Assembly (NCBI GenBank): GCA_044347745.1
Contig: JBIKUD010000004.1
Coordinates: forward strand, 2,132 to 66,131
Reading direction: 5' to 3'
DNA from: Bdellovibrionota bacterium
GTDB taxonomy: Bacteria > Bdellovibrionota_C > UBA2361 > JAFLCA01
DNA length: 64,000 nt
In this document: piece after piece, positions 15,772 through 43,408 of the stretch
Numbering within the stretch: the first letter of the stretch is position 1
Layout: each line of letters begins with the position of its first letter
Program-made: the position numbers and the translations under genes
Notes under the pieces: model-generated
What the model saw: the letters and a program-made list of their open reading frames with translations, nothing else
The model's database searches: none
Told to the model about the DNA's origin: nothing

Positions 15772-17499
15772 CTACACGGTGAGCACATGCGCAATAATCT
15801 TCTTTCTAAACTCCTCGAAGCCAACTCTCTTGAGCGCCGAAACTGCTACTGCATCATACTGTGCTGATAGATTTGCCACGATCGCTGGATCTTGAGCATC
15901 AATTTTATTAAGCACGTTCACTATGGGAGTATTTCCAAGCTCCATAGTTTGTAGCGTCGCTTCAACCGCAGCTTTCTTTTCAGCTACTTCGGGGTCAGAG
16001 GCATCCAGCACGTGCACTAAAACCGCAGCATCGTATAGTTCCTCAAGCGTGGCTCGAAATGCCGTGCGAAGTTCTTCAGGTAAATCGCGGATAAAACCTA
16101 CGGTATCGGAGAGAATAACGGGAGCTAATGTTACCTGCCCTTCTGGTCCGATTTGATTGAGGGTTATGCGCCGCTGTGCCGGATCAAGGGTGGCAAATAA
16201 TTTATTCTCAGCAAGTACCGTGCTTTGGGTTAAAGCATTAAAAAAGGTACTTTTACCTACGTTGGTGTACCCAAGAATTGCCACAAGCGGGACTCCCCGA
16301 TCCTGACGTTTACTTCTTCTGAGGTGGCGTTGCTCCCCAAGCTTATCTATTCGTCGTTCTAGGTCGACGATACGATCACGAATGCGTCTGCGGCCAATTT
16401 CTAATTTTGTTTCACCTGGTCCCCGACCACCAATTCCACCACTCAAGCGCGAAAGCCCAGTATCTTTTTCAACGAGACGAGGCAGATTGTACTTAAGCTG
16501 GGCAAGCTCAACCTGCAAGCGACCTTCGCTACTCGTCGCTCGTTGAGCGAAAATATCCAAAATGAGCATGCTCCGGTCAATAACTTTAAGATCAGTCATT
16601 TTGGTAATAATGCGCCATTGTCCTGGCTTTAGTTCTCCGTCAAATATGAGCATTTCAGCGCCAAGGGCGAGACAACGGAGTACCACTTGCTCCAATTTGC
16701 CCTTACCGAGGAGCGATCGAGGATCGGGGGTTCGTCGCTGCACAAAGGTATCGACGATGGCAACTCCCGCAGTGCGGGCCAGCTCACGCAGTTCAAGCAT
16801 CGAACTTTCAACCGCTTTCGCCGATTTTTCGTAGACACCAACGAGTACTGCTTTGACTCCCTGCACCTCTTTTGCGCTTGATTGCATCGCCTGAAGCTCG
16901 GCTTCAAGCTCTGCCAAAAACTCAGCGCAATTAAACTCAAAGCGACCTAAATCTGGAACTTTTTCGGTGCGTGAAAGGGGGTCGGCTTCAAGCCCAGGGG
17001 GAACTATGTAGGCATAAGCCATGCTCGTTTTTTTCTCGTCCCCTTTCAACGAAACTACCATATCAAGGCGCAGCTTATGCAAATCGGTGAAATGGTCTTG
17101 AGGGATTTGAGGTTCAGAAGTACTCGTTGACAAATCACTAAACAAGAGTCGCAGGCGTCGCAGGCGTCCGGGCCCTAATCGGTAACGTCCCAAATCAGGA
17201 AGATACAAAATTTCGCGTGAACCAATAAAAACCTCCTCTACTCGCCCCTCGCGAGAAACAAGCATACCGATGCGGCGTTTTATGGTGTGTGCGGCGCGCA
17301 AAATTTCACGTGCTACATCCAACGGCACAATCTCATCGCTTGAAAAACGACGGGAAAATAACTTTTGCACCATGCGAATTTCGCTTGGACTAAGTCCTTT
17401 GGTATTACCTTCAATATTCTGTGACATATTATTTTGAGCGTCCTTTTTTGAGGCTGGCCGAACGGGCATTCTAGTCGCGGCTTCAAATAAGCCAAGCAA
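15772..17499 (-). CDS. hflX: GTPase HflX with long N-terminal extension
   Basis: HflX N-domain and G-domain (GYTNVGKSTFFNALT, DTVGF); 575 aa vs ~430 typical. Confidence 0.85.
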   Translation of the reverse strand: MLGLFEAATRMPVRPASKKDAQNNMSQNIEGNTKGLSPSEIRMVQKLFSRRFSSDEIVPLDVAREILRAAHTIKRRIGMLVSREGRVEEVFIGSREILYLPDLGRYRLGPGRLRRLRLLFSDLSTSTSEPQIPQDHFTDLHKLRLDMVVSLKGDEKKTSMAYAYIVPPGLEADPLSRTEKVPDLGRFEFNCAEFLAELEAELQAMQSSAKEVQGVKAVLVGVYEKSAKAVESSMLELRELARTAGVAIVDTFVQRRTPDPRSLLGKGKLEQVVLRCLALGAEMLIFDGELKPGQWRIITKMTDLKVIDRSMLILDIFAQRATSSEGRLQVELAQLKYNLPRLVEKDTGLSRLSGGIGGRGPGETKLEIGRRRIRDRIVDLERRIDKLGEQRHLRRSKRQDRGVPLVAILGYTNVGKSTFFNALTQSTVLAENKLFATLDPAQRRITLNQIGPEGQVTLAPVILSDTVGFIRDLPEELRTAFRATLEELYDAAVLVHVLDASDPEVAEKKAAVEATLQTMELGNTPIVNVLNKIDAQDPAIVANLSAQYDAVAVSALKRVGFEEFRKKIIAHVLTV

Positions 17500-17578: not shown

Positions 17579-18652
17579 TTGTTGAGGCTCTACAATAGCG
17601 CGCAGTTAAGTAAAAGACCACTTTCCGTTCTGTTTCCCTTACCGTGGAGGCGCTTTGTGTTAAGTCTTCGCTTTAAACCAGTTAATGCCGATCATGGGCT
17701 CGAAACCCGTGCTCTTGTAGCTCTTTTTGAAGAAAGCCATGGAGCCAGCTATCCCTATCCCGAGGTGTATAACGAACATTTTTGGAAGACTCGAATAAAC
17801 AGAGATTTTACAAGTCTTGTAGCGCTACAAAAAAACAAAATAGTTGCTCACATTGGATTGCGATTTGAAGCGCAGGGGCGTGCCGATGCGCATCTTCTCT
17901 TTATTGCCATTCACCCAGAATGGAGCACACAGGCCGGTGAAATACTTAATCAACTTTGGCAACTCGGCGCAAATTGCCGACGTTGGCCAGAAGTGTATGG
18001 CATTCATTGCGCCATGCCTTTTCCGCATCAGGCAATCGACGAGTTTCTCTCTGACGTAATTGGACTTCGCTTTGTTTCTCTGCTACCGCAATACGGCAAA
18101 ACGGAAAGTGGAAGACATACTCTGGCTCTTTACTCTCGTGCAAAACAGCATCCGTTGCCAGCGCCAAAAATGCGAATTCCTCAAGCTCTGAGCGAGTATG
18201 CCCAAAAGGTGTATGCACAGTTTGGAATTACTCCCGAATTTGTATCCAACACCAAGCCTCAGCTTCGGGCAATTTCAGCCGATGTACAGGCCGTAGAGCA
18301 GGTGTGTAACCACTCACTCGGTGTTGAGCAATTGCTTATATCTCCCTCCTTAGCGAAGGCTCAACTTGAACTTTCCGATAGTAGTTTGAGAAAGATTTTG
18401 TACATCGATGCTCGAGATCCACTCTGTAGTGAGGTCATTACTGAAGCTGAAGAGAAAGGGTATTCATTTAGTGGCTTCGCGCCGTTCCTGCGCGGCAGAC
18501 ATTATGTGGTAATGGGCTCACATCCGGTACTTGAGCAAGCTTCGGATATTTCAAATTCGGCCCTTGCGCCTATTTTTGCAAGTCGAGGATCGCGAGCGCA
18601 GCCTTCACCGAAAAATCGAGGCCAAACTTCAAGACAAGCTATAGCAATTTAA
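17579..18652 (+). CDS. Hypothetical protein, possibly GNAT-fold acyltransferase-like; start uncertain
   Basis: ORF with weak GNAT-like core (IVAHIGLRF...LLFIAIHPEW); no strong motif. Confidence 0.35.
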   Translation: MLRLYNSAQLSKRPLSVLFPLPWRRFVLSLRFKPVNADHGLETRALVALFEESHGASYPYPEVYNEHFWKTRINRDFTSLVALQKNKIVAHIGLRFEAQGRADAHLLFIAIHPEWSTQAGEILNQLWQLGANCRRWPEVYGIHCAMPFPHQAIDEFLSDVIGLRFVSLLPQYGKTESGRHTLALYSRAKQHPLPAPKMRIPQALSEYAQKVYAQFGITPEFVSNTKPQLRAISADVQAVEQVCNHSLGVEQLLISPSLAKAQLELSDSSLRKILYIDARDPLCSEVITEAEEKGYSFSGFAPFLRGRHYVVMGSHPVLEQASDISNSALAPIFASRGSRAQPSPKNRGQTSRQAIAI

Positions 18653-20028
18653 GCCCGACATACTACTTCGCAGGCATCGACAATATTTTTTGCAATCTCG
18701 GGATTTGACCCGAAATGTAAGAAATGGAAGCTGCTTAATACTTGGGCTGAAGGTGAATGCCCTTCATGCTGTGCAGTGGGGCCCACTCCGGTGAAACGCA
18801 ATGCTTTTACGTCCCGCTCCTCATTAGTCAAGCGCCAGTCTGCTGTTTTAATACCTTTTATTATCAGCCCAACACGCCCGAGGACTGATTCTTCAACCGA
18901 GACCGCTTCGACATAGCCGAATTGAGATACAGCACTAATTGCCAATCCTGAACATAAGCCCACACCGTCAAATACCTGCCCGGAGGATGTTTTGAATTGC
19001 CTACATAAATATGCTGAGCCAGCCCCTTCTGAATAAACCACCCCTCCGCTGTCAGCAAACTGAGCAATCGATTCTCTCATGCTCTGATTATCTGCAAGAG
19101 CTGCTGCGTATTCTTCTAAAAAACATCCGGGAATATAAAGCCCGCCAATATGTCCGGGGAGGTGATCATCCGCAAGCGGAGAAAAGGGCACAATTTCGGC
19201 TCCATAATAGCGCAGCAATTCAAGGTTGTCCTGAAAGAGCAGGCTAAAACAACCGTCATCGGCAACCGCAATGCGAGTTCTGCGGCTTAGAGGCGCATGC
19301 GAATATTCAGTAATACGGATCGCTGTGGCATGCGTAGCGGCCTCAACTATGGCATCCACATCGACATGCTTTGAAACGAGGCTTCCCACATCCATCAGAA
19401 ATTGACGGCTCAATGCTTCGCAGGTTCGTGACTGAGATAACGGCATGTTTGGAAGCTGGCAATGAATCTGGGGTAAAATTCCCAAAGTAGCTTGCTGCCC
19501 GAGGGCGCGTAGTGCTTCATCGTAGCCTTCCTCATTCAAGATAGAGTCCGGGGCAAAATTATTCAGCAAGAGACCACTCACCTGAAAACCCTGCGCCGCT
19601 AATTGATAGCCGCGATATAAGGCGGCCAAACTGGCTCCAAACCCACCTGGATCTACCACCAATATAACGGGAGTGTGAAGTGCGGCTGCGTACTCCGCAG
19701 GCGAACCACGCAAAGCGCCGGGCTGAATCCCATCGTAAAGCCCCACAGCCCCACCATCAATCAGAAGTAGCTCTGCGCCGACACAGGCCTGATAGGTGCT
19801 GACTAAAATTTGGCCAGGAGCGAGCAAACGCTCATCACATATTCTCACATTGCGACCGATGACTCGCCTGAGCATAGTCGCAAAAGAAAGATTTGGGGCT
19901 ATGAGCGCCATGGACAACGCCAGGCCCCTACGCTTCATCTCTAAGGCCAAAGCGAGCGTCATGAGGCTGCAATTTGCCTGCGGCCCAGCTCCAGCTAATA
20001 CAATTCTCGAAGTATGGAGATTCTCCAT
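18649..20028 (-). CDS. CbiA/CobB-like protein (cobyrinic acid a,c-diamide synthase family), apparently degenerate
   Basis: Two-domain layout (CobQ/CobB/MinD-type NTPase domain + C-terminal GATase-3 domain with GLYIPGCFLEEYA...VYSEGAGSAYL) but Walker A replaced by GAGPQANCS and expected catalytic Cys position reads G. Confidence 0.55.
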   Translation of the reverse strand: MENLHTSRIVLAGAGPQANCSLMTLALALEMKRRGLALSMALIAPNLSFATMLRRVIGRNVRICDERLLAPGQILVSTYQACVGAELLLIDGGAVGLYDGIQPGALRGSPAEYAAALHTPVILVVDPGGFGASLAALYRGYQLAAQGFQVSGLLLNNFAPDSILNEEGYDEALRALGQQATLGILPQIHCQLPNMPLSQSRTCEALSRQFLMDVGSLVSKHVDVDAIVEAATHATAIRITEYSHAPLSRRTRIAVADDGCFSLLFQDNLELLRYYGAEIVPFSPLADDHLPGHIGGLYIPGCFLEEYAAALADNQSMRESIAQFADSGGVVYSEGAGSAYLCRQFKTSSGQVFDGVGLCSGLAISAVSQFGYVEAVSVEESVLGRVGLIIKGIKTADWRLTNEERDVKALRFTGVGPTAQHEGHSPSAQVLSSFHFLHFGSNPEIAKNIVDACEVVCRA

Positions 20029-20201
20029 GCGTAGTAACTCTTAGTCTATTAATGGAGCCTTTCGCCGAACCAAAGAAGAGGCCCTTCGTTCGGTAATTAA
20101 AAAAACCTAAAGCGCCAACACGTATATCGGCAGAATAGGCGGTTAAACTTAAACGCCAGCTCTAAGTGTCGATTTTAAACGCTTTTGCTCTCTCTTGTGT
20201 A

Positions 20202-21368
20202 TTAACGCCGGCGTAAAACGAGGGATCTATTTCGTTGAGAAACTTTCCTCTGGTCTCTCTCAGCTTGAGCGCCTTTGAGTCGCGCCTCAGGCTCTTTGGA
20301 TACCAAAATACACTCCGCTTCCCAGTATTGGCTCAAATTTGCGTTTACATACGCCATAAGTTCTTCATCAAGGTCAATAAGCTGACTTCCAATCTTAAGC
20401 CCCTTAAGAACCAAGACCGCACGCCCGCCACGTGACACAACGCGCGCGAGCTCAAAGAGACTTTCGCTCATAAATTCAAGCCAACACCCAAGTGTTTGCC
20501 AAGACTGATGCCGAGCCGAAACCTCCTTGGCCTGAATCCCCGAAAACCACAGACGCAACCAAAGGTCCTCGGCGGGATTACTCGTAACAGGGATTGGCGG
20601 TGCAGTGACCACAAGACTTACGCCAGGTCGCGAAATAAAATTAAGATTACGCGCATCGGCGCTTACGAAGCGCCCTTTCTGAGCACCTTGACGAGCCGCA
20701 CTAGGCACCCCATCACGCAACAAGGACGCGGTTCTTCTAAGAATTCTTGGAACAACTGCACGATAATCCGGAGCCTGGTTACGTTTGCGGTTCAGCTCCT
20801 TTTGCATCTCTGGTCTTAAAGAAATTTGAGGAAACGTATAAACCGAAAATGCGCCCGCGCTCGGACCGTGCAAGAGACTCTGGGATATAAGCTCGATGAA
20901 ACGGGCCACCGGGGTGCCAGTCTCGTGGACCCAATCACGAAGCTGCACAAGCTCTCTAAAGGTAGCTACGTCATAAAAATGACTAAAATATTCGGCATAC
21001 ACTTTTAGGTCCATGGGGCGCCTGAGCTGTAGACCCTGCAGCGCCAAAGTGACTTCAGTAAGATCGCTTGGACTGGTTTTTGCCTCCGCCATTCGAGCAA
21101 AAAAAGGATTAGGATCGCTAGCGTATGGAATGCGACCACGCAATGCGGCTTCAAGCGGAATAGCTCCAGTTCCGCAAAATGGGTCGAGAACTATTTCACC
21201 TTTCTTCGAAAAACGCTCAATAAAATACTGAGCAAGCTCAGGCGGGCAGCCTTCCGTAATCGGCAATGAATAATGCAGTGAGTGCTCCGACCCATTTGCT
21301 GACGCAGCCAACTCCAATTCCTTACGGTAGAAGGGAGTATTTTCAACTAACTGAAGTGCGGATCGCAT
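20202..21368 (-). CDS. Putative SAM-dependent methyltransferase (RlmL/UPF0020-like motif I, no THUMP domain)
   Basis: LDPFCGTGAIPLEAALRG resembles DPMCGSGT..IEAA motif I of N6-adenine/m2G methylases; downstream VVTAPPIP in place of NPPY. Confidence 0.5.
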   Translation of the reverse strand: MRSALQLVENTPFYRKELELAASANGSEHSLHYSLPITEGCPPELAQYFIERFSKKGEIVLDPFCGTGAIPLEAALRGRIPYASDPNPFFARMAEAKTSPSDLTEVTLALQGLQLRRPMDLKVYAEYFSHFYDVATFRELVQLRDWVHETGTPVARFIELISQSLLHGPSAGAFSVYTFPQISLRPEMQKELNRKRNQAPDYRAVVPRILRRTASLLRDGVPSAARQGAQKGRFVSADARNLNFISRPGVSLVVTAPPIPVTSNPAEDLWLRLWFSGIQAKEVSARHQSWQTLGCWLEFMSESLFELARVVSRGGRAVLVLKGLKIGSQLIDLDEELMAYVNANLSQYWEAECILVSKEPEARLKGAQAERDQRKVSQRNRSLVLRRR

Positions 21369-21507: not shown

Positions 21508-22695
21508 TCAAGGCTGGGAAAACTCTTTAACGTTATTCTGAGCTGCCTTTAATGAAGGGTCCAAACGGACCGCTGCTTTAAATTCTCGAGCCGCTTCATC
21601 GGGTTTACCAATTCGCTGATAGAGCACACCAAGATTGTTATGCGCTGAAGCGTCCGAGGCATCCAACTCAATCGCCTTTTGCAGCGCGGCTTCAGCCTCT
21701 TTATATTTGCCTAACTCAAGCCTGGCCCAACCAAGCACTCCATGCGCCCAGGCATTCGTTGAGTCGATAGCCAAGGCCTTGAGCACTACCTCTTCGGCTA
21801 AACTTTCTTGGCGTTTATTAATGAGCACAACTGCTAAATTTACCTGAGTGGCTACATTCTGCTTATCAAGCTGCACGGCCTTACGCAGCGCCAACTCCGC
21901 CTTATCGAGATCTCCAAGCTTCTCATAAACAACTCCCAGTGCCTGCTGCGCTTCAGCATGCTCGGGACTAATGCGAGTGAGCCGAGAAAGAAACTGCTGT
22001 GCCTTATCATATTGACCAAGCCGTTGCGCCGTTAATCCCGCATAAAGTAATGCATCTTTATGCTGCGCATCTATTGCGAGACAGTTCTCATAGGCCGCCA
22101 ATGCGTCCTCAAATCTTTGAAGACGTTCATACAAAACGCCAAGATTATAAAGCGTGATGCTGGACTTATCATCTAAGGCTTTCGCCTTTATTAAATAACC
22201 AACCGCCGCATCAAGATCGCCTTCCCGTTCTGTGCTCAGTGCCAACCCCTGCAGTCCAGGCACCAAACGTGCATCAAGCTCTACAGCCTTAGAAAAAGCT
22301 TGTTTTGCGGCTGCGTTATTCTGAAGCTCAAGATTCACTCGCCCGACCGCAATATAAAAAGCCACATCCTCTTTTAAAGACGCTGCCTTATTAAATGACT
22401 CAAGTGCCAAGGTATGTTCGTTCCTTCGCGAGAGCAGCACGCCCAAATTGTGGTGAGCTTCTGCCATGCCGGGACAGGTACTAATGGCGTCTCGATATAA
22501 TTTTTCTTCCTGAGCCGAGCTATCTCCGAGCGCGACACCCTGCTTAACCAATCGCCCCGCCGCCACGCAGTCAGTTTGAGCATCGGCCGCAGCAGCAAGG
22601 AGCAGCGTGAAACAACCACCTAAAATTGGTGCCGTCAAACACGTTGCGATTTTATGACGACTGAAGCGAAGAGAAAAAAGCCAGCAAGGTTGCAT
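21508..22695 (-). CDS. Secreted tetratricopeptide-repeat protein
   Basis: Signal peptide then ~10 consecutive 34-aa TPR units (A..A..YYNLG.. periodicity). Confidence 0.75.
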   Translation of the reverse strand: MQPCWLFSLRFSRHKIATCLTAPILGGCFTLLLAAAADAQTDCVAAGRLVKQGVALGDSSAQEEKLYRDAISTCPGMAEAHHNLGVLLSRRNEHTLALESFNKAASLKEDVAFYIAVGRVNLELQNNAAAKQAFSKAVELDARLVPGLQGLALSTEREGDLDAAVGYLIKAKALDDKSSITLYNLGVLYERLQRFEDALAAYENCLAIDAQHKDALLYAGLTAQRLGQYDKAQQFLSRLTRISPEHAEAQQALGVVYEKLGDLDKAELALRKAVQLDKQNVATQVNLAVVLINKRQESLAEEVVLKALAIDSTNAWAHGVLGWARLELGKYKEAEAALQKAIELDASDASAHNNLGVLYQRIGKPDEAAREFKAAVRLDPSLKAAQNNVKEFSQP

Positions 22696-22748
22696 ACAAA
22701 AAAACTTAGAAGACTTGATACGCAGCTCTAGTATAAGACCGGTTTTTG

Positions 22749-23927
22749 TTAAAGTGAAATAGAGCTTTTACAATGACGGTGACAGGCTGCGAGGGTATCT
22801 CTAAGTATTTGGTCCGGGGCCACGGCGGCAATCCGTACATGCCTTTCGAATTCTGAACCAAAGTTAGTACCCGGCAAAAGAAATACTCCATCTTGCAGGG
22901 CTAGTTCCTGGCAGAAAGCCTCTGCCAAGCCAGCCTCTTTAGGCAGCTCAGCCCAAACCCCACATCCAGCTTGGGGCGCCGAGACGCTAAAACCTGCCTG
23001 GGTCAGGCCCTTTACAAGCAGCCCGCAGCGCTGTGCATATTGAGTCCTCGCGCTTGATACTAAATCGGCATTAGAAATAAGGGCTTGAGCTCCCGCAAGT
23101 TGAAGCGGCATAAAGAGCCCATAATCAAGATGTGCCTTAATGCGTGAAACACGCTCCACCATAGCAGCATCTCCAACTACGGCCCCAAGGCGCCACCCTG
23201 GAATGCTATAGGCCTTTGACAGGCTATAGATTTCTAGCGCCCTGCCAGTCAGAGCTTCACAAGAAAGCAGACTAGATGCCGGCTTTCCATCAAAACAGAG
23301 CTCTCCGTAAACAAAGTCGTTAACAATGTACGTGTCATCTTTTTTTAATATCTCTGAGAGGCGCTGCCAAAATTTAGATGAAACGGTGGCCCCTGTAGGA
23401 TTGTGAGGAAAATTACAAACACAAAGAGCAATATGGGGTTGCGCAGAAACACTCAACTCGATTGAACGGAGCGTCTCTTCCTCGGTTCCCACTGAGTAAA
23501 AGAGAGGAATAAGGCCTTGAAACTCAATCGCGCTTAGGTAAGCCGCGTAGGTTGGCTTGGGCAGGAGTACTCTGGTTCCTCTCGGGCAAAGCGCCGCGAG
23601 GGAGCATAAAAAAGCATCTTTGGCACCGAGGGTAACGCAGACTTGCGTGTCTGCGGAAACAGAGATTGAGAACTGACGTCTATAAAGATGCGCAAACCCT
23701 TCCCTAAGCTTGGCAAGTCCGCGCGCAACGGAATAGCGGTGGTTCTTTTGTTGTAAAGTTGCTTCCACCAGTCTATCAAGCAATAGCCTGGGCGGAGGAA
23801 GATCGGGGTTGATCATCGATAAGTCGATGATGCGACGTCCTGCAGCTAAAGAACTCTCCTTTAGTTGCCTTAATGTCCTAAATCGAGGAGCGTCGACCCA
23901 GTCTGTCTCAGGATTTAATTGTACCAT
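22749..23927 (-). CDS. PLP-dependent aminotransferase, class I/II
   Basis: Fold-type I aminotransferase length with SKAYSIPGWRLG (PLP-lysine region). Confidence 0.8.
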   Translation of the reverse strand: MVQLNPETDWVDAPRFRTLRQLKESSLAAGRRIIDLSMINPDLPPPRLLLDRLVEATLQQKNHRYSVARGLAKLREGFAHLYRRQFSISVSADTQVCVTLGAKDAFLCSLAALCPRGTRVLLPKPTYAAYLSAIEFQGLIPLFYSVGTEEETLRSIELSVSAQPHIALCVCNFPHNPTGATVSSKFWQRLSEILKKDDTYIVNDFVYGELCFDGKPASSLLSCEALTGRALEIYSLSKAYSIPGWRLGAVVGDAAMVERVSRIKAHLDYGLFMPLQLAGAQALISNADLVSSARTQYAQRCGLLVKGLTQAGFSVSAPQAGCGVWAELPKEAGLAEAFCQELALQDGVFLLPGTNFGSEFERHVRIAAVAPDQILRDTLAACHRHCKSSISL

Positions 23928-33053: not shown

Positions 33054-33328
33054 ATTTGAGAACTTGGGGGAACACAAGCTTCGCTTAATGTTCCCAGCAG
33101 GCGCAGTGTTTTAGGTGCCTTACCTTAGGAGCTAAGCCCCTCTCCTCCCTTCATAACTACTTGGAGTTCCTTAGCGCTGGCATGGTTAGGTAACAGAGCC
33201 TTAAGCTCAGCACAATTTGATTGGCATTTAATTTGCTCCTTCATACCAGCTGGTGGTTCCTCAATTAAAAAGGCGGCGATTCAACGCGCCACTAGAGGAA
33301 CGGTGCAGGTTTGTGGTTTGAGGTGGTT

Positions 33329-35542
33329 ATGTCGTGGCGTATTCTGTTGCGCAGTGCAATTTTTTTAATTGTATGTGTATTTTCGAGTAGTCCAGCGTGG
33401 GCCATATATACACGAATGCGTTTTACCGGCCCGTTTCACATTTCGAGCTGCCCCCCTTCGGGCCCCTCGCAGGTGGTCACAACGAACATACGGTATGACC
33501 TTGATTTTCGTCCTCTCCAAAACGTTGGTGCCATCGATCCGGTAGCAACTATCCTGCTCTACACCCAAAATCCACACCCGAGCTGCGCAGATGATCCGTT
33601 GGGAGCCAATTGTTTATCTTCATTCCCTCTGGGACAGCGCGCATTTTTGCCAAATCCACGTGAAATTCCAATCTCTATTACGAGCGCCATGGGGGGCCAA
33701 ACCTTCCACCTCCTTGCCGTGGGCTTTTCTATGGCATCGGGATCATTACAGGTTACGCACACCCGCGTTACTCCATTCCGATTTCTTGAATGTACGAGCA
33801 CACCAGCACCACTCGCTGTTCCCGGAGCAGGGTTTAGCTCAGGTCCGCCCGCTACCAGCGTGGTTGCTGGAACTCCCGCATTCTTACAAAACCAAACTAC
33901 CGTGGCTCACTGGGCTCTTGAAATTCAGCGTGACCGCCTGAGCGAAGCCCGCGAAATCGGCGTCATGACCGACAACGCCAGTGGCATTCAACGGGTAGAT
34001 TTTTCGGTCAATGGTGGTCCGATAGTTTCGGTAACGGAACGTCGATACGGCAAACGCGACGCGGCTCCGGGATATTTTATTACCGTCAATCCAGCTCAGT
34101 TTACTCCTGGCTCCCTTATTGAAATAAGAGCGGTAGTGTACCCCGTGTTCGGAAAAACTGCGGTACTGGCTGGACCAGTCACCACTCTTTCATCGGGATC
34201 AACCCCACCGACTTCAAATACGGGCTTACATAGTTTATTTTTGTACGCCGACCCAAATAATGCGCTGCCGAGGGCGACAGTTTATCTATCCCCAGGTGGC
34301 AATGACAACAGCGGCACAGGGTCGATTAGTGCTCCTTTTCTTACCTTTGCTCGGGCCGTAAATTCATTACGCACAACTCTTGGCAACAAACTAAGTGGTG
34401 GAACCATTGCTCTCTTGCCTGGTGACTATGTGCTTGGCTCTGGTCTGCCCAATTGGTGGACTCAAAGCGAATATCCAGACGGTTATCTAACTGTTGAATC
34501 GGCACCTGGTGTTCCTTCCGATCAAGTTCGCTTTGTAAATGTGCAGTCCAGCTGGATGGCGCGCTTTCTGAAAGTGCGTAACCTTACTATCTTGCCCCCT
34601 TTTAACGTTTCTATTTTGCGCGACGGCGATGGTGAACGAAGGGCACACCTCTACGTAGAAAATGTGGATGTGTATAGCCCGAGCCTTACCAGTGGGCACT
34701 TTAATTACGGCGGCAACGAGTTCGGGTTCAAAGCCGTGAAGCGTTCCTATACCGTGGGTGGTGACCGGGGCGTTGATTCCGCGTCATGGATTGCAAATTT
34801 TATGACCTATTACGGCACAGGGATCGCCTTTAACGACTCAATTCTTGTCTTTTCCTCGCTCGCCGAAAATTATGACCAGTATCGTCGTCATCCAGCGAAT
34901 CATGGAGACCTATTCCACATTCATGGAAGGGAGAAAAATATTCTTATCCAATGGCTTCTTCGCGGCGTGGATTTGTTCCGAATCCAAGGTCTATTCTTGT
35001 CAGCGGCCAAAGACGGGGTAGCAATTATCGAAAGCGTCAGCGATGTTGCTACTCGCGAAAAAGAAGTTGGCGCTCCAGGCAATGCTGCCCCTATCGGAGG
35101 ACAGCAGAACTTGATTATACGCAGCTCTGAATTTTTTGGTCAGGCAAACGTATTTAGTAATCCTGCAAACCAGCCGGGCAGCGTCTTTTTAGCAGACGGT
35201 GTGACATTCCCCATGAATCCTTGCAACACTTTTAATGAAGATTGCAATCCTTCTACGGGAACTTCAAACAACTCAAGCGGAGTGGTCTACTTAGGAAATG
35301 CCGCAGCATTAACAATGGTAAAATCGTCAGAGCCCGCTAAAACAATTGGGAAAGTCAACAAGGCAAAAATAGGCAAGCCCGCCCAAATTTCGCAAAAATC
35401 TCTTCGAATATTACTAAAATCTTTTCCTAAAGAGATTGCGCGCTTAATTCAAAAACAGACTGCGCTTTCAAAGCCAGCAGTCAAACGCAAGTTAGCTTTA
35501 CGTAGGTTGAACAATAAGGCAAAAAGCGTGGTTATTAGTTAG
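33329..35542 (+). CDS. Secreted protein, probably right-handed beta-helix (pectin-lyase fold)-like, with Lys-rich C-terminal tail
   Basis: Signal MSWRILLRSAIFLIVCVFSSSPAWA after GAGGTGG RBS; Gly/Asn/Ser/Thr-rich periodic body; ~70-aa K/R-rich C-terminus. Confidence 0.5.
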   Translation: MSWRILLRSAIFLIVCVFSSSPAWAIYTRMRFTGPFHISSCPPSGPSQVVTTNIRYDLDFRPLQNVGAIDPVATILLYTQNPHPSCADDPLGANCLSSFPLGQRAFLPNPREIPISITSAMGGQTFHLLAVGFSMASGSLQVTHTRVTPFRFLECTSTPAPLAVPGAGFSSGPPATSVVAGTPAFLQNQTTVAHWALEIQRDRLSEAREIGVMTDNASGIQRVDFSVNGGPIVSVTERRYGKRDAAPGYFITVNPAQFTPGSLIEIRAVVYPVFGKTAVLAGPVTTLSSGSTPPTSNTGLHSLFLYADPNNALPRATVYLSPGGNDNSGTGSISAPFLTFARAVNSLRTTLGNKLSGGTIALLPGDYVLGSGLPNWWTQSEYPDGYLTVESAPGVPSDQVRFVNVQSSWMARFLKVRNLTILPPFNVSILRDGDGERRAHLYVENVDVYSPSLTSGHFNYGGNEFGFKAVKRSYTVGGDRGVDSASWIANFMTYYGTGIAFNDSILVFSSLAENYDQYRRHPANHGDLFHIHGREKNILIQWLLRGVDLFRIQGLFLSAAKDGVAIIESVSDVATREKEVGAPGNAAPIGGQQNLIIRSSEFFGQANVFSNPANQPGSVFLADGVTFPMNPCNTFNEDCNPSTGTSNNSSGVVYLGNAAALTMVKSSEPAKTIGKVNKAKIGKPAQISQKSLRILLKSFPKEIARLIQKQTALSKPAVKRKLALRRLNNKAKSVVIS

Positions 35543-38301: not shown

Positions 38302-39078
38302 TTAATCCAAAATGGCGAATCCTATGTAAGGATCAAATTCAAATCTTTGCAGCCTTAAATTCCTTAATCCCACAGATTCAAGCGTTGCTTGGGTTTCGCC
38401 TGGCCAAATAGGATTATCCAGTTCATCGAATGCCAAAATGGCACCTTTGGGCATTCGTGGAACTAAATGCTCAAGACATAATTTTGTCGGCTCATACAAA
38501 TCTAAATCCATAAAAAGCAAACTTACGACTAAGTGGGGGTGCGTTTCCAAAAAGTTTGGCAATGTTTGACGAATATCGCCCTTTACTAACTCAACCTTTG
38601 GCACATGCCCCAAAAAGCGATTTTGATCATAGACCTCAACAAGTTTGCTGAGTTCCTGATACGAATCGGCAGCAAGCTGACCTTTTTGTGGCACAAAGTT
38701 TGTTGTTTTGTCCTTCGCATGACTATCAACAAAACCTGAGAACGTATCAAAGCCATAGATACGGCGGGTCAAATTATTCGGCTCCAAAACTGCCGAAAAA
38801 TTAGCCCAAGACATGAGGCCAAAACCTTCATTCACGCCGCACTCAACCAGCGATCCCTTCACCGGCAAGGAGAGTTTAAAAAGTTCATACAAGGCCAAAT
38901 ATCTGGTCACTTTTTGGCGTTTTAGATACTTGGGGAAGTGCTCAAGCTTAACGTGGGTTGGCGCTGGATTTGCGTCGAAAAGCTCCCCAAGACGCGGCCC
39001 CACACTTGCCTCAGTTGCTGTGCGAAAACCACCCTCAGGCTTCAGCACTACATCCTTTAACGCTGCATTATCTGACAT
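38302..39078 (-). CDS. TylF/MycF-family class I SAM-dependent (sugar) O-methyltransferase
   Basis: LVECGVNEGFG SAM motif, Mg-binding FMDLDLYEPT, macrocin-O-MT-like length. Confidence 0.75.
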   Translation of the reverse strand: MSDNAALKDVVLKPEGGFRTATEASVGPRLGELFDANPAPTHVKLEHFPKYLKRQKVTRYLALYELFKLSLPVKGSLVECGVNEGFGLMSWANFSAVLEPNNLTRRIYGFDTFSGFVDSHAKDKTTNFVPQKGQLAADSYQELSKLVEVYDQNRFLGHVPKVELVKGDIRQTLPNFLETHPHLVVSLLFMDLDLYEPTKLCLEHLVPRMPKGAILAFDELDNPIWPGETQATLESVGLRNLRLQRFEFDPYIGFAILD

Positions 39079-40051
39079 ATTGTGCCTTTTGTGCCTGATG
39101 GCCAGGCTTCGATGTAAACAAAGCTGAAATACGCTTATACACTCCTAAATCGTCAAGACCGACGTGGCTGCGTAAATAAGCATTATCGCCGACAGCCTCA
39201 AAATAGGCGTCAGGTAATCCGAGTCTCATAAAGTCCCCGCGGTAGCCTCGTTCAAGAATTAATTCAGAGACTGCGGAACCGAGCCCGCCGATAATGGAAT
39301 GCTCTTCTAAGGTAATAACTGTGGTTGCTTCAGAAAGAATTGACTCAATGAGCATCATATCGAGCGGCTTAATGGTGGGGACGCTCCAAACAGAAACTGG
39401 TGTCCCCTCGGCCTTAAGTTTTGAAGCCACTGTATGTGCCGTCGCCAACATTGGCCCAGAACTAAGAAGATAACGCCCACCGTCATTGGTTAAGCGTATC
39501 GCTTTCCCAATACCTACTTTTGGCAATTCTTGATGAACGACATCTGCACTGTCACGGGCGAGACGCAAATACAAAGGACCATTAAAATCAAGCGAACTTT
39601 CAGTCAGCATTCGCGCTTCTAGTTTGTCGCCGGGCGCCACGACTGTCATTCCAGGCAGTGAGCGCATTAACGCCACATCCTCGAATGCATGGTGCGTTAT
39701 GCCTTCCATCGGATATCCAAGACCCGCACCTATTCCAACGAGTCGCACCGGAGCTTTATGAGCACAAACGTCAACGCGCACTTGCTCAAAAGCCCGCATA
39801 ACCAAAAAAGGCGCCATCGAATAGCAATAAACCTTCTTGCCCATGAGTGCCATAGAAGCAGCCACACTCACCATATTGGATTCTGCAACGCCGGCATTTA
39901 TAAAGCGCGGCCCCAAGACAGATCGCAAATTATCAAAAATGCGAAACCCCAAGTCTCCGGTAAGCAGCACGACATCCTTATCTTCGCGAGCCAAAGCGGT
40001 TAGAGTATCTATAAAAGTAGTTCTCATGCGCATCCCCCTTGCGCTGCACAC
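39068..40051 (-). CDS. Transketolase, C-terminal subunit (split transketolase)
   Basis: Pyr and C-terminal transketolase domains (~327 aa), paired with N-terminal subunit gene upstream, 28-bp overlap. Confidence 0.8.
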   Translation of the reverse strand: MCSARGMRMRTTFIDTLTALAREDKDVVLLTGDLGFRIFDNLRSVLGPRFINAGVAESNMVSVAASMALMGKKVYCYSMAPFLVMRAFEQVRVDVCAHKAPVRLVGIGAGLGYPMEGITHHAFEDVALMRSLPGMTVVAPGDKLEARMLTESSLDFNGPLYLRLARDSADVVHQELPKVGIGKAIRLTNDGGRYLLSSGPMLATAHTVASKLKAEGTPVSVWSVPTIKPLDMMLIESILSEATTVITLEEHSIIGGLGSAVSELILERGYRGDFMRLGLPDAYFEAVGDNAYLRSHVGLDDLGVYKRISALFTSKPGHQAQKAQYVR

Positions 40052-40881
40052 TCTGCAATTTGAGCATCTATCTCTTGGCGAGCAGCAGCCAGTTCTTTTT
40101 CATCAGGGCAACGATAATGCCAAAGTAGCGTATCCCGCATAAAGGAAACTCCCTGCCCCTTAAACGTATGCAAAATGAGCACCTGGGGTTTCCCACGAAT
40201 CGACGCTGTAGCCTTGAGAGATTTTACTACGGCATTAACATCGTTGCCTTGAACCTCGGAGACGGCCCAGCCAAATGCTTCAAATTTTTTTCCTAACGGT
40301 TCTAGACCAAGCACCTCTTCACAACGTCCGAGAGCCTGGATTTTATTATAATCAACCAAGGCTATTAAATTATCTAGCTTATGCTGAGCCGCGAACAAGA
40401 CTGCTTCCCAGCTACTTCCTTCGTTTAGCTCACCGTCAGAGAGCAGCACAAAGGAGCGAGCAATCGAGGCATCAAGCTTCATGGTCCATGCGGCCCCGGC
40501 CGCTAGAGACAATCCATGGCCTAGCGACCCCCCACTTGATTCTATGCCCCAAGCCGGGTTGCGTTTCTGATGATGTTCAAGGGTGCCACCAGAAATACCG
40601 TAACGCTTATACACCTCGTCAGGTAGGAATCCCTTTTTGTTCAGCACCGTGTAAAGCGCCAAGCAAGCGTGGCCTTTACTGAGGAAAAATCTGTCCCTAT
40701 GGGCAGCTTGAAGAGTCTCTGCCGTAACTTGCAGTTCTGAAAAATAAAGGGCCACTAATGCTTCGACACACGAGAAGCAACTCCCCAGATGTGGACTCGC
40801 CGTGGCATGAGTTACATCCAAAATTTGGCGACGCACCTCGGCACATATAAGGCCTAAATTCGGATTTCTGACTTCTGACAT
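40024..40881 (-). CDS. Transketolase, N-terminal (ThDP-binding) subunit (split transketolase)
   Basis: ThDP-binding GDG(X)n N motif region (LLSDGELNEGSSWEA), 285 aa. Confidence 0.8.
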   Translation of the reverse strand: MSEVRNPNLGLICAEVRRQILDVTHATASPHLGSCFSCVEALVALYFSELQVTAETLQAAHRDRFFLSKGHACLALYTVLNKKGFLPDEVYKRYGISGGTLEHHQKRNPAWGIESSGGSLGHGLSLAAGAAWTMKLDASIARSFVLLSDGELNEGSSWEAVLFAAQHKLDNLIALVDYNKIQALGRCEEVLGLEPLGKKFEAFGWAVSEVQGNDVNAVVKSLKATASIRGKPQVLILHTFKGQGVSFMRDTLLWHYRCPDEKELAAARQEIDAQIAECAAQGGCA

Positions 40882-42724: not shown

Positions 42725-43408
42725 ATGAGCACCTCATCGCTTTGCATAGTGCACTACGGGCTTGGAAACCCTCGCTCCATTCAGAATATGTACTCACGCT
42801 TAGGAGTAAAGGCCCTGGTGAGCGCAGAGCCGCAGGTTATTAGCCAAGCTACCCACCTTATTTTGCCTGGTGTTGGCGCCTTTGATCGTGGCATGCAAAA
42901 CCTAAAGGAGTTGAATTTAATTCCGGTACTTGAGGATTCTGTATTAAAGCGCAAGGTGCCTGTGCTTGGTATTTGCCTTGGACTTCAGCTTATGGGCCTC
43001 AGGAGCGAAGAAGGAAGAGAATCCGGCTTAGGTTGGTTCGATGCCGAATGTATTCGCTTTAGGCTCGCAGGAAGAACGGATCTGAAAGTGCCACTGATGG
43101 GCTGGCGTACAATCATTTCTAAACGAAAAGATGCACTACTGAGTCAATTAGGCCCAGATTCTCGCTTTTATTTTGTACATTCTTATCATTTGTCAGGCCT
43201 GCCTGAAGAGTCCTTAGTCGCTTCAGCAGAACATGGCTATGAATTTCCCGCTATTGTGCGCCAAGGTAATATCATGGGCGCTCAGTTTCATCCTGAAAAG
43301 AGCCATACATTTGGAATGCGCTTGCTTAAGAACTTCTATGAAAATACGGGCATGGATCAGGGCTACGGGCCCACTGGCGATAAAAAGTCGGGGGCTTCGA
43401 CTCTATGA
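42725..43408 (+). CDS. Glutamine amidotransferase, HisH-like (WbuY-like)
   Basis: Class I GATase triad context (GICLGLQLM, FHPE); 4-bp overlap with HisF-like gene. Confidence 0.8.
   Translation: MSTSSLCIVHYGLGNPRSIQNMYSRLGVKALVSAEPQVISQATHLILPGVGAFDRGMQNLKELNLIPVLEDSVLKRKVPVLGICLGLQLMGLRSEEGRESGLGWFDAECIRFRLAGRTDLKVPLMGWRTIISKRKDALLSQLGPDSRFYFVHSYHLSGLPEESLVASAEHGYEFPAIVRQGNIMGAQFHPEKSHTFGMRLLKNFYENTGMDQGYGPTGDKKSGASTL

What the first reader, a model, noticed from the sequence alone, without database searches (positions are those of the whole stretch)
18649..20028. Stand-alone CbiA/CobB-like protein that appears to have lost both catalytic signatures
Domain order and many family-typical residues of cobyrinic acid a,c-diamide synthase are present. 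The Walker-A position reads LAGAGPQANCS instead of the GxxxxGK[ST] loop. In the GATase-3 domain, the segment that aligns to the catalytic AECGG reads SEGAGS, with Gly at the nucleophile position. No other cobalamin-pathway genes are adjacent. This may be a pseudo-enzyme repurposed for regulation or scaffolding, or my hand alignment is off by a few residues.
Basis: partly seen in the sequence, partly recalled or inferred. Interest (0 to 1): 0.5.

Follow-up and report, generated by a model that had tools for sequence, protein, structure and literature searches.

The report
Conserved catalytically dead CbiA-like protein
This gene encodes an intact, well-conserved relative of the vitamin-B12 enzyme CbiA/CobB that has lost every residue needed for that enzyme's chemistry. 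It belongs to a large uncharacterised family of such "dead" copies in Bdellovibrio-like bacteria, so it should not be counted as a B12-pathway gene.

Summary
ORF 18649-20028 (-) encodes a 459-aa protein with the full CbiA/CobB two-domain fold (AF2 pLDDT 93.8). A profile HMM built from 143 genuine CbiA sequences aligns it end to end. That alignment puts Cys20 where the P-loop Lys should be (LAGAGPQANCS) and Gly335 where the glutaminase Cys should be (SEGAGS).

Also gone are the dyad His (Phe436), the GGGxPE loop, the GHEFHxS motif and the K-x-GPD-xx-D motif, all invariant in 154 Cys-bearing sequences.

It is not a decaying gene. It belongs to a monophyletic family of at least 175 sequences, all without the Cys/His dyad, from MAGs labelled Bdellovibrionota, Oligoflexia or similar. 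Synonymous sites are saturated against the nearest relative while pN is 0.22.

About 60% of the family keep GK[ST]. The Lys state changed at least 9 times, including in this gene's subclade, and it is usually lost together with a family-specific Asp110.

In 12 of 14 family loci the gene directly follows a methyltransferase-like gene with a Trm11/TrmN-like fold, usually upstream of hflX. No cob/cbi genes occur in the 64-kb window.

Best reading: a non-catalytic (pseudoenzyme) CbiA paralogue, possibly a partner of that methyltransferase. Its function remains unknown.

The parts
18649..20028 (-). Intact 459-aa ORF encoding the CbiA/CobB-fold protein that lacks all catalytic signatures. It belongs to group 1 of the Cys-less CbiA-like family, in the subclade without a P-loop Lys.
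19294..20028 (-). N-terminal dethiobiotin-synthetase-like (SIMIBI NTPase) domain, aa 1-245.
19963..19998 (-). Degenerate Walker-A position, aa 11-22 LAGAGPQANCSL. Asn19 replaces the invariant Gly and Cys20 replaces the invariant Lys.
   Evidence: Lys is present in 154 of 154 Cys-bearing sequences.
19882..19905 (-). aa 42-49 LIAPNLSF, in place of the CbiA-invariant K-x-G-P-D-x-x-D motif. Lys42, Asp46 and Asp49 are all lost.
19729..19770 (-). Retained Walker-B-like strand and GLYDG motif, aa 87-100 LLLIDGGAVGLYDG. Asp91 aligns to the canonical Glu, and Asp99 is kept.
19696..19707 (-). aa 108-111 GSPA. Position 110 is Asp in 60 of 60 P-loop-bearing group-1 members and Pro here. It is usually lost together with the P-loop Lys.
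18652..19281 (-). C-terminal triad-GATase-fold domain (GATase_3), aa 250-459. This is the most conserved half of the protein.
19012..19035 (-). Nucleophile-elbow position, aa 332-339 YSEGAGSA. Gly335 replaces the catalytic Cys.
19114..19134 (-). aa 299-305 IPGCFLE, in place of the canonical G-G-G-[FY]-P-E loop. I take this loop to be the oxyanion loop from my own knowledge of class-I GATases.
18712..18729 (-). aa 434-439 FHFLHF, in place of Y-x-H-x-H-F. Phe436 replaces the invariant dyad His. The second, less conserved His438 is kept.
   Evidence: GatD C94/H189 dyad from PMC5871853.
18835..18855 (-). aa 392-398 GIKTADW, in place of the canonical G-H-E-F-H-x-S motif.
19246..19257 (-). aa 258-261 DGCF. 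Asp258 and Phe261 are shared with true CbiA. Cys260 is specific to group 1 (65 of 69) and is Ala in true CbiA and in group 2.
20202..21368 (-). Upstream methyltransferase-like gene on the same strand (388 aa). It has a Trm11/TrmN-like fold, an intact motif I (LDPFCGTG) and a non-canonical motif IV (TAPPIP). It is the conserved neighbour of the CbiA-like gene.
20029..20201 (-). 173-nt spacer between the methyltransferase-like and CbiA-like genes. It holds one weak promoter-like and one weak terminator-like match. In other lineages the two genes are 4-nt overlapping (L004), 4 nt apart (L009), or up to about 270 nt apart.
15772..17499 (-). hflX (GTP-bdg_N/M, MMR_HSR1) on the same strand downstream. 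An hflX homologue lies downstream in 11 of the 14 family loci.
17657..18652 (+). Convergent 331-aa weakly GNAT-like gene. Its 3' end overlaps the CbiA-like stop codon by 4 nt. Homologues lie at the same place in L003, L009 and probably L092.
21508..23927 (-). TPR-repeat protein (395 aa) and class I/II aminotransferase (392 aa) upstream on the same strand. They are syntenic in most group-1 loci only.

Best explanation
The gene encodes a folded, selectively maintained paralogue of cobyrinate a,c-diamide synthase that cannot carry out that reaction.

Shown:
- The glutaminase site is gone: Cys to Gly335, dyad His to Phe436, and the GGGxPE loop.
- The synthetase-domain residues invariant in true CbiA are gone: Lys42, Asp46, Asp49 and GHEFHxS.
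- In this lineage the P-loop Lys is gone too.
- The protein belongs to a monophyletic 'Cys-less CbiA-like' family found in MAGs labelled Bdellovibrionota, Oligoflexia or similar.
- About 40% of the family lack the P-loop Lys, and its state changed at least 9 times on an NJ tree.

Inferred:
- Because the Lys has changed state so often while the rest of the protein stays conserved, the function that keeps the gene does not depend on ATP hydrolysis or on glutamine hydrolysis.
- The protein therefore most likely acts non-catalytically, as a ligand- or protein-binding subunit.
- Where the P-loop and Asp110 are retained, nucleotide binding may still modulate it.
- Its most probable partner is the product of the gene directly upstream, a Trm11/TrmN-like SAM-methyltransferase-fold protein. 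The two may act in an RNA- or ribosome-related context, given the conserved downstream hflX.
For: Fold:
- AF2 mean pLDDT 93.8, pTM 0.92.

Residue assignments:
- Profile HMM and MAFFT column counts.
- In 154-155 Cys-bearing sequences, K20, K42, D46, D49, C335, G336 and E305 are invariant, and P304 and H436 are invariant but for one sequence each.
- In 187-208 Cys-less sequences, position 335 is G/A/S/D, H436 is kept in only 9-12, and K42, D46 and D49 are kept in 30, 17 and 16.
- C94A and H189A abolish glutaminase activity in the related GatD (PMC5871853).

Family:
- E-values drop sharply from 1e-73 (family) to about 1e-52 and weaker.
- About 100 of the top 150 representatives at 50% identity lack the Cys.
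- The core family of 175 is monophyletic in an NJ tree, with a stem of 0.29 substitutions per site.

Selection:
- pS 0.82 (saturated) against pN 0.22 versus L092, with similar values in both domains.
- The N-domain of the P-loop-less subclade is no less conserved than expected from P-loop-bearing members.
- An identical protein was read on 8 contigs from several sources.

P-loop:
- The query's subclade is nested within P-loop-bearing members.
- At least 9 changes of Lys state in the core family.
- K20 against D110 counts are 106 both, 63 neither, 14 and 4 discordant.

Context:
- The methyltransferase-like gene lies immediately upstream on the same strand in the window, L003-L009, L089, L090 and L092. 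That covers both family groups, which otherwise have different upstream neighbours.
- The two genes overlap by 4 nt in L004 and lie 4 nt apart in L009.
Against: - No direct evidence exists for any binding partner or for absence of catalysis.
- The family gained its own near-invariant residues (Cys260, Asp110, Trp398, Arg55, Arg59, Arg249, Arg252), which could form a new active site.
- About 60% of members keep an apparently competent P-loop and Walker-B acid, so the ancestral protein may be an enzyme that uses ATP.
- The methyltransferase-like gene occurs at the same syntenic place without the CbiA-like gene in L087 and L088. Two family members, L091 and L024, lack it nearby. The partnership is therefore not obligatory, or not always encoded in cis.
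- This whole region (hflX, pepP, L31, ahpC) is broadly syntenic in these lineages, so adjacency carries less weight than it would in shuffled genomes.
- The window's 173-nt spacer has weak promoter- and terminator-like matches.
- The trees are NJ on identity distances, and the K20-D110 statistic is not corrected for phylogeny.
Confidence: 0.55

Rival explanations
1. Neo-functionalised enzyme. The family is still catalytic but with different chemistry. In P-loop-bearing members this could be an ATP-dependent ligase or kinase that uses free ammonia or another nucleophile on an unknown carboxylate. In members like this one it could be an ATP-independent activity built on the family-specific conserved residues (Cys260, Asp258, Glu334, His438, Trp398 and the Arg cluster).
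For: - High conservation of new residues that are absent from true CbiA.
- The P-loop, Walker-B acid and a new invariant Asp110 are retained in 60 of 60 P-loop-bearing group-1 members.
- Asp65, Asp99, Ser109, Ser133, Asp258 and Glu334 are shared with true CbiA.
- Purifying selection on both domains.
Against: - The P-loop Lys changed state at least 9 times and is absent in about 40% of the family, without faster evolution of the N-domain. This is hard to reconcile with an essential ATP-dependent step.
- Cys260 is Ala in all of group 2 and is Ser, Ile or Val in some group-1 members, so it is not a universal nucleophile.
- No candidate substrate genes are conserved nearby. hemC adjacency occurs in one locus only.
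Confidence: 0.27
2. Tetrapyrrole-binding relic. The protein no longer amidates but still binds a corrin, sirohydrochlorin or haem-type tetrapyrrole. It would act as a carrier, chaperone or sensor.
For: - Descent from CbiA/CobB.
- The GLYDG, NLD-Asp65 and Ser133 positions shared with true CbiA are retained.
- Several conserved Arg residues could bind carboxylates.
- In L009 hemC lies directly downstream, 5 nt away on the same strand.
Against: - hemC is adjacent in only 1 of 14 family loci.
- No tetrapyrrole genes lie in the 64-kb window.
- The K-x-GPD-xx-D and GHEFHxS motifs, invariant in all true CbiA, are lost. From my recollection of Raushel-lab mutagenesis, not checked here, the Asp residues of the first motif matter for the synthetase reaction.
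Confidence: 0.1
3. Decaying pseudogene or assembly artefact. This would be a formerly functional cbiA that is being lost after the cob pathway disappeared.
For: - All catalytic residues are gone and no cob genes lie nearby.
- Related lineages lack the gene at the syntenic place (L087, L088).
- Sporadic Cys loss does occur in otherwise canonical sequences (P0337, P0353, P0363).
Against: - The ORF is intact at 459 aa with no frameshifts.
- An identical protein was read on 8 independent contigs.
- There are at least 175 family members, with 16 invariant and 58 near-invariant columns in 66 of them.
- pN 0.22 against saturated pS.
- The AF2 model is very confident.
- The family is old enough to have split into two groups that share the same neighbour gene.
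Confidence: 0.02
4. Genuine cobyrinate a,c-diamide synthase that was misread because of an alignment shift.
For: - Full-length similarity to NCBIfam CobB models (E 2e-60).
- Some family members are named 'cobyrinate a,c-diamide synthase' by NCBI and JGI.
Against: - The profile-HMM and MAFFT alignments agree, without gaps, at both motifs and are anchored by invariant neighbours.
- Scores fall below every curated cut-off.
- There is no Cys within the elbow. Cys342 downstream is variable in both sets.
Confidence: 0.01

Closest known systems
CbiA/CobB, cobyrinate or hydrogenobyrinate a,c-diamide synthase (NCBIfam NF002204, TIGR00379; Pfam PF01656/PF13500 + PF07685)
   Same: - Same two-domain architecture and length.
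- End-to-end profile alignment.
- Same folds: a BioD-like N-domain and a GatD-like GATase_3 C-domain.
- Shared invariant positions Asp65, Gly92, GLYDG, Ser133, Asp258, Phe261, SPL-x-D and Glu334.
   Different: - The query lacks the P-loop Lys. The whole family lacks the Cys/His dyad, GGGxPE, GHEFHxS and (but for 16-30 members) K-x-GPD-xx-D.
- Scores are below the curated cut-offs.
- It is not in a cob/cbi cluster.
- The family forms a separate long-branch clade.
CfbB (Ni-sirohydrochlorin a,c-diamide synthase, NF033195), and DsrN-type siroheme amidases as recalled from memory
   Same: These are CbiA paralogues recruited to other tetrapyrroles, which shows that the scaffold can change substrate.
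   Different: - The query scores 163 bits against a cut-off of 560 for CfbB.
- From my own knowledge, not tested here, those enzymes keep the P-loop and the catalytic Cys.
- The taxa differ, and no F430 or dsr genes lie nearby.
GatD of the MurT/GatD lipid II amidotransferase (PDB 6gs2; PMC5871853)
   Same: - It belongs to the same CobB/CobQ-type GATase subfamily, with a Cys/His dyad rather than a triad.
- It works only in complex with a partner protein.
   Different: - GatD keeps C94 and H189, and mutating either kills activity. The query has Gly and Phe at those positions.
- GatD is a single-domain protein that pairs with a Mur-ligase homologue.
Known pseudo-amidotransferases and pseudo-enzyme partners: herpesviral vGAT (dead FGARAT homologues, PMC7605207) and PDX1.2 (PMC6829848)
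   Same: These are homologues of metabolic enzymes that have lost catalytic residues, are kept under selection, and act by binding other proteins.
   Different: - They come from unrelated families and organisms.
- Their non-catalytic functions have been shown experimentally, whereas here the function is only inferred.
Trm11-Trm112 and TrmN/Trm14 tRNA m2G methyltransferases (PDB 6zxv, 3tma, 3tlj)
   Same: - From my own knowledge, Trm11 needs a small non-catalytic activator, Trm112. That is a precedent for a methyltransferase paired with a non-enzymatic subunit.
   Different: - The neighbour lacks the canonical D/N-PP-Y/F motif IV (T-x-PP-L-P instead).
- It has a roughly 190-residue helical insertion.
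- Its Pfam hits cover only the motif I region, and no THUMP family was reported.
- A CbiA-fold protein is unrelated to Trm112.
- Whether the two proteins interact is untested.

Membership tests
CbiA/CobB cobyrinate a,c-diamide synthase | Two-domain architecture: N-terminal BioD/MinD-type ATP-binding domain plus C-terminal GATase_3 domain | tested here: met
   [not shown]
CbiA/CobB cobyrinate a,c-diamide synthase | Walker-A P-loop G-x-x-G-x-G-K-[ST] | tested here: not met
   The query reads GAGPQANCS, with Asn19 and Cys20 at the Gly-Lys positions. Lys is present in 154 of 154 Cys-bearing sequences.
CbiA/CobB cobyrinate a,c-diamide synthase | Glutaminase nucleophile Cys in A-E-C-G-G, plus the dyad His | tested here: not met
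   Gly335 and Phe436. Cys is present in 155 of 155 and His in 154 of 155 genuine sequences (the remaining one is a gap).
CbiA/CobB cobyrinate a,c-diamide synthase | Synthetase-domain motif K-x-G-P-D-x-x-D and the G-H-E-F-H-x-S motif | tested here: not met
   LIAPNLSF and GIKTADW. Lys42, Asp46 and Asp49 are each present in 154 of 154 genuine sequences.
CbiA/CobB cobyrinate a,c-diamide synthase | Score at or above the curated NCBIfam cut-off | tested here: not met
   NF002204 204.8 against 254. TIGR00379 192.5 against 261.4.
CbiA/CobB cobyrinate a,c-diamide synthase | Genomic association with other cob/cbi genes, and a complete pathway in the genome | tested here: inconclusive
   None in the 64-kb window and none annotated in the flanks of the 13 other family loci; canonical loci carry genes that window ORFs do not match.
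Pfam GATase_3 (PF07685) domain family | Score above the gathering threshold | tested here: met
   53.7 bits against 27, but only profile positions 1-110 of 196 are aligned.
CfbB Ni-sirohydrochlorin a,c-diamide synthase | NCBIfam NF033195 cut-off | tested here: not met
   163.1 bits against 560.
CobQ cobyric acid synthase | NCBIfam NF001989 cut-off | tested here: not met
   15.1 bits against 273.
ParA/MinD-type ATPases (Pfam PF01656 'CbiA') | PF01656 match, and a deviant Walker A with Lys | tested here: not met
   No PF01656 hit at E<=1. There is no Lys in the P-loop.
Cys-less CbiA-like family (defined here) | Falls inside the monophyletic clade with Gly/Ala at 335, non-His at 436, loss of GGGxPE, GHEFHxS and (mostly) KxGPDxxD, and Trp398 | tested here: met
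   The nearest relatives are P0001 (69% identity) and P0002-P0009 (48-53%).
Pseudoenzyme (general concept) | Homologue of an enzyme, lacking the residues essential for that enzyme's catalysis, yet maintained by selection | tested here: met
Pseudoenzyme (general concept) | Demonstrated absence of catalysis, and a demonstrated non-catalytic function | not testable with these tools
   This needs biochemistry and genetics.
Anti-phage defence systems (PADLOC) | Match of the protein to a defence-system model | tested here: not met
   No PADLOC hit for the CbiA-like protein. Its neighbour hits an MTase_II model (5e-44), but no nuclease is adjacent and the locus is housekeeping-syntenic.

The most novel reading that the evidence does not exclude
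The dead CbiA-fold protein is a dedicated non-catalytic subunit (activator, substrate adaptor or nucleotide-gated switch) of the adjacent Trm11/TrmN-like methyltransferase. Together they would form a previously unknown bacterial RNA- or ribosome-modifying holoenzyme, linked to the HflX ribosome-rescue GTPase encoded downstream. This would be the first case of a B12-pathway amidotransferase scaffold recruited as a methyltransferase partner, functionally analogous to Trm112.
Probability: 0.15. Interest if true: 0.7.

Novelty: new variant of a known kind. Interest (0 to 1): 0.45.

Why it matters
[quoted passage not shown] Counting them as cbiA would wrongly credit Bdellovibrionota-type genomes with a B12-pathway step in metagenomic surveys of B12 producers and auxotrophs.
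- **Evolution.** The family is a clean natural series of stepwise inactivation. The glutaminase site was lost once at the base. The ATP site then changed state at least 9 times, usually together with a co-varying Asp. This makes it a useful system for studying how pseudoenzymes arise and what keeps them.
- **Biology.** The conserved pairing with an unusual Trm11/TrmN-like methyltransferase next to hflX points to an uncharacterised, possibly RNA- or ribosome-related, two-protein module in a poorly studied phylum of mostly uncultured, partly predatory bacteria.

I found no paper describing the family in the searchable library.

Tried and rejected
- **Tetrapyrrole link through hemC.** hemC follows the gene in L009, but tblastn found it in no other family locus and not in the window. 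I kept this only as a low-probability rival.
- **Cys260 as a relocated nucleophile.** It is near-invariant in group 1 (65 of 69), but it is Ala throughout group 2 and Ser, Ile or Val in some members. Not supported.
- **Defence-island reading.** PADLOC gives no hit for the protein. The neighbour hits an MTase_II model, but the locus is housekeeping-syntenic across lineages and has no nuclease. Rejected.
- **dN/dS.** Synonymous sites are saturated even against the closest relative (pS 0.82). Only the qualitative statement that pN is far below pS is possible.
- **Relaxed constraint on the N-domain after P-loop loss.** Not seen. The residual is +0.03 identity against the trend of P-loop-bearing pairs.
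- **PDB sequence searches**. No CbiA/CobB chain was matched. The only hits are weak ones to BioD and Pta, plus a spurious dihydroorotase hit.
- **Genome-contig scan**. It returned only L007, L008, L009 and L024 as family members, so the taxonomic spread among GTDB species is undersampled.
- **Literature.** Searches for a described dead CbiA, or for a Bdellovibrio CbiA-like protein, found nothing relevant.
- **Divergent copy in L087/L088.** No divergent CbiA-like gene lies near the methyltransferase in those loci.


Full report
**1. What is at the coordinates**

ORF 18649..20028 (minus strand, ATG start, 459 aa) is intact.
- Pfam recognises only the first half of a GATase_3 domain (PF07685, 53.7 bits, residues 252-358). 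It does not hit PF01656 CbiA, and AAA_26 is marginal (E 0.044).
- NCBIfam CobB/CbiA models align over the full length (residues 8-438 and 8-451) but score below their curated cut-offs: 204.8 against 254 and 192.5 against 261.4. CfbB and CobQ are far below theirs.
- No solved CbiA/CobB chain was found by sequence.

**2. Are the catalytic positions really empty?**

Yes. So does a profile HMM built from 143 Cys-bearing CbiA/CobB sequences. That HMM aligns query 6-454 to model 3-452 at 280.9 bits, with high posterior probability at both motifs.

| Canonical motif | Query | Change |
|---|---|---|
| SGvGKTT | GPQANCS | Gly to Asn19, Lys to Cys20 |
| YAECGGlmYL | YSEGAGSAYL | Cys to Gly335 |

The second column is anchored by Glu334, which is invariant in both sets.

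Counts are for 154-155 Cys-bearing sequences.

| Position or motif | Canonical state | Query |
|---|---|---|
| Lys42, Asp46, Asp49 (K-x-GPD-xx-D) | 154/154 each | LIAPNLSF |
| G-G-G-[FY]-P-E loop | Pro304 154/155, Glu305 155/155 | IPGCFLE |
| G-H-E-F-H-x-S | His393 151/155 | GIKTADW |
| His436 in Y-x-H-x-H-F | 154/155 (the other is a gap) | Phe |

His438 is less conserved in true CbiA (136 of 155) and is kept in the query. In the structurally closest solved relative, GatD, the Cys/His pair is a catalytic dyad, and C94A or H189A abolishes glutaminase activity (PMC5871853).

Some positions are retained: the Walker-B acid (Asp91 for Glu), the GLYDG motif, Asp65, Ser109, Ser133, Asp258, Phe261 and Glu334.

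**3. Is it a real, folded protein?**

- An AF2 model built with a 66-sequence family alignment has mean pLDDT 93.8 and pTM 0.92.
- The identical protein was read on 8 contigs from ENA, JGI/NCBI and Logan assemblies.

**4. It is one member of a large Cys-less family**

- The first homology search gave about 76 clusters with E <= 1e-73. There was then a sharp drop to about 1e-52 and weaker, where all but one of the hits are ordinary Cys-bearing CbiA. All 76 lack the Cys.
- An exhaustive profile search of 1.84 billion representatives showed that about 100 of the best 150 clusters at 50% identity lack the Cys.
- The family has two groups:
  - Group 1 is the query's group. Its marks are D-x-C-F, S-E-G-A-G-T-A and Asp110.
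  - Group 2 is L009-like and runs about 480-500 aa. Its marks are D-A-A-F and Y-A-E-G-x-A-x-A. Its P-loop reads G-[VAT]-S-T without Lys, and Lys42 is often kept.
- Pooling 341 complete sequences gives the following.

| Set | n | Lys20 kept | His436 kept |
|---|---|---|---|
| With Cys | 154 | 154 | 153 |
| Cys-less | 187 | 110 | 9 |

- In the Cys-less set, position 335 is Gly 170, Ala 13, Ser 3 and Asp 1.
- In an NJ tree the core family (175 sequences) is monophyletic on a stem of 0.29 substitutions per site.
- Three other Cys-less sequences (P0337, P0353, P0363) are otherwise canonical CbiAs with sporadic loss. They lie outside the family.
- Named members come from MAGs labelled Oligoflexia, Bdellovibrionales, Bdellovibrionota, 'Deltaproteobacteria', Pseudomonadota or Candidatus Dadabacteria.
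- The window's HflX is 70% identical to that of an Oligoflexia MAG.

**5. The P-loop story**

- Within group 1, the members without Lys that are closest to the query (P0001-P0009, P0012) form a nested, derived clade. P0046 lost the Lys independently.
- Across the core family the Lys state changes at least 9 times by Fitch parsimony on the NJ tree. It is kept in 105 sequences and lost in 69.
- Loss of Lys20 goes with loss of a family-specific Asp110. That Asp is present in 60 of 60 P-loop-bearing group-1 members, while true CbiA has Thr or Ser there.
- The pooled counts are 106 with both, 63 with neither, and 14 and 4 discordant. This statistic is not corrected for phylogeny, but the losses recur.
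- After P-loop loss the N-domain is not less conserved than expected from the trend in P-loop-bearing pairs (residual +0.03).
- Against the 69%-identical orthologue in L092, pN is 0.22 while pS is 0.82, which is saturated. The N-domain (pN 0.24) and C-domain (pN 0.20) behave alike.
- Inference: the selected function of the family does not require ATP hydrolysis. Where the site is kept, nucleotide binding may be regulatory.

**6. Genomic context**

The window has no cob/cbi genes.
- The +-10 kb around the gene carries hflX, pepP, L31, ahpC, NAD kinase, a RecN-like gene, a histidine kinase, an SCP2 protein, coaE and a Wzy-type gene.
- Apart from this ORF, the only window ORF that matches genes flanking more than two of the 77 canonical cbiA loci is a generic aminotransferase.
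- Pfam scans of 30 further ORFs show sdhABC, mdh, SPFH proteins, an M23 peptidase, a large polysaccharide-biosynthesis cluster, queG, ispA-like and others.

The informative feature is the upstream neighbour.
- A 388-aa methyltransferase-like gene lies immediately upstream on the same strand in the window and in L003-L009, L089, L090 and L092.
- The pair is kept in both family groups, although the genes further upstream differ. Group 1 has an aminotransferase and a TPR protein, and group 2 has a pair of M16 peptidases.
- The two genes overlap by 4 nt in L004 and lie 4 nt apart in L009.
- hflX follows downstream in 11 of the 14 family loci.

The pairing has exceptions.
- L091 and L024 have the CbiA-like gene without the methyltransferase.
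- L087 and L088 have the methyltransferase at the syntenic place without the CbiA-like gene.
- The methyltransferase family is larger, with 366 hits.

**7. What the neighbour is**

- Its Pfam and NCBIfam hits cover only the motif I region: N6_N4_Mtase, UPF0020/RMKL-like, and Trm14/TIGR01177.
- A PADLOC 'MTase_II' model matches residues 10-327 (5e-44).
- Motif I (LDPFxGxGT) is conserved. The position of motif IV reads T-x-P-P-L-P in the family and TAPPIP here. It has neither the Asp/Asn/Ser nor the aromatic residue of canonical amino-methyltransferases.
- Its substrate is unknown.

**8. Interpretation**

- Shown: the protein cannot be a glutamine-dependent cobyrinate a,c-diamide synthase. It is a conserved, selected, well-folded member of a distinct family. 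In this lineage the nucleotide site is also gone.
- Inferred: it has a non-catalytic binding, scaffolding or regulatory role. The adjacent methyltransferase-fold protein is its most likely partner, and an RNA- or ribosome-related context is suggested by the neighbour's fold and by hflX.
- Rivals, all weighed in the rival section:
  - a new catalytic activity built on family-specific residues;
  - a tetrapyrrole-binding relic, for which the single hemC adjacency in L009 is the only positive hint;
  - a decaying pseudogene, which is rejected;
  - an alignment artefact, which is rejected.

**9. Novelty and score**

- Literature searches found no description of a dead CbiA family.
- Pseudo-amidotransferases are known in other families, for example viral vGAT (PMC7605207).
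- I therefore rate this a new variant of a known kind. It is a real, moderately interesting finding with an immediate annotation consequence. Its function is open, and a more novel reading (a methyltransferase partner) is plausible but unproven.

Noticed in passing
window 20202-21368 (-): A 388-aa methyltransferase-like protein whose predicted fold best matches the tRNA m2G methyltransferases Trm11, TrmN and Trm14. Its 'motif IV' reads TAPPIP (family consensus T-x-PP-L-P) instead of D/N/S-PP-Y/F/W, and about 190 residues of helices separate motif I from it. The family has at least 366 members and is wider than the CbiA-like family.
   Followed up: partly
window 17657-18652 (+): A 331-aa protein with only a marginal GNAT hit (Acetyltransf_1, E 0.0025). 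It is convergent with the CbiA-like gene, and the two 3' ends overlap by 4 nt. Homologues sit at the equivalent place in L003 (38% identity) and L009 (24%).
   Followed up: partly
L009 3267-4265 (+): Porphobilinogen deaminase (hemC) lies 5 nt downstream of a group-2 Cys-less CbiA-like gene, forming a tight methyltransferase / CbiA-like / hemC string. It was seen in this one locus only.
   Followed up: yes
P0337, P0353, P0363: Otherwise canonical CbiA sequences that keep KxGPDxxD and most of the GHEFH motif (two also keep the dyad His) but have Asp or Gly at the nucleophile position. These are sporadic inactivations or errors outside the Cys-less family.
   Followed up: partly
P0381, P0393 and the JGI-named members: [quoted passage not shown] This is probably over-annotation that would inflate B12-pathway calls.
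   Followed up: partly
window about 26276-52340: A large polysaccharide/O-antigen-type cluster. It holds a Wzy_C ligase/polymerase, a 1092-aa PMT_2 glycosyltransferase, a sugar transferase, a TylF-like methyltransferase, a split transketolase (39068-40881), a DegT aminotransferase, a hexapeptide acetyltransferase, a HisH/HisF-like pair (42725-44148), a fatty-acid desaturase, a flippase, a formyltransferase and a Polysacc_synt_2 dehydratase.
   Followed up: no
window 33311-35542 (+), 45296-46765 (-), 48340-49488 (+): Three sizeable ORFs (743, 489 and 382 aa) with no Pfam family at E<=1e-5.
   Followed up: no
L024 7998-9251 (+): A shorter (417 aa), very divergent Cys-less and Lys-less family member in 'Deltaproteobacteria bacterium UBA2409'. 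It lies between an ECF sigma factor gene and a flagellin/FG-GAP fusion gene, with hflX still downstream and no methyltransferase-like neighbour.
   Followed up: partly
L087 and L088: In two related lineages the methyltransferase-like gene sits at the same syntenic place without any CbiA-like gene within +-6 kb. In L087 it lies upstream of hflX, and in L088 just after the aminotransferase and TPR genes. This suggests lineage-specific loss or relocation of the CbiA-like gene.
   Followed up: partly
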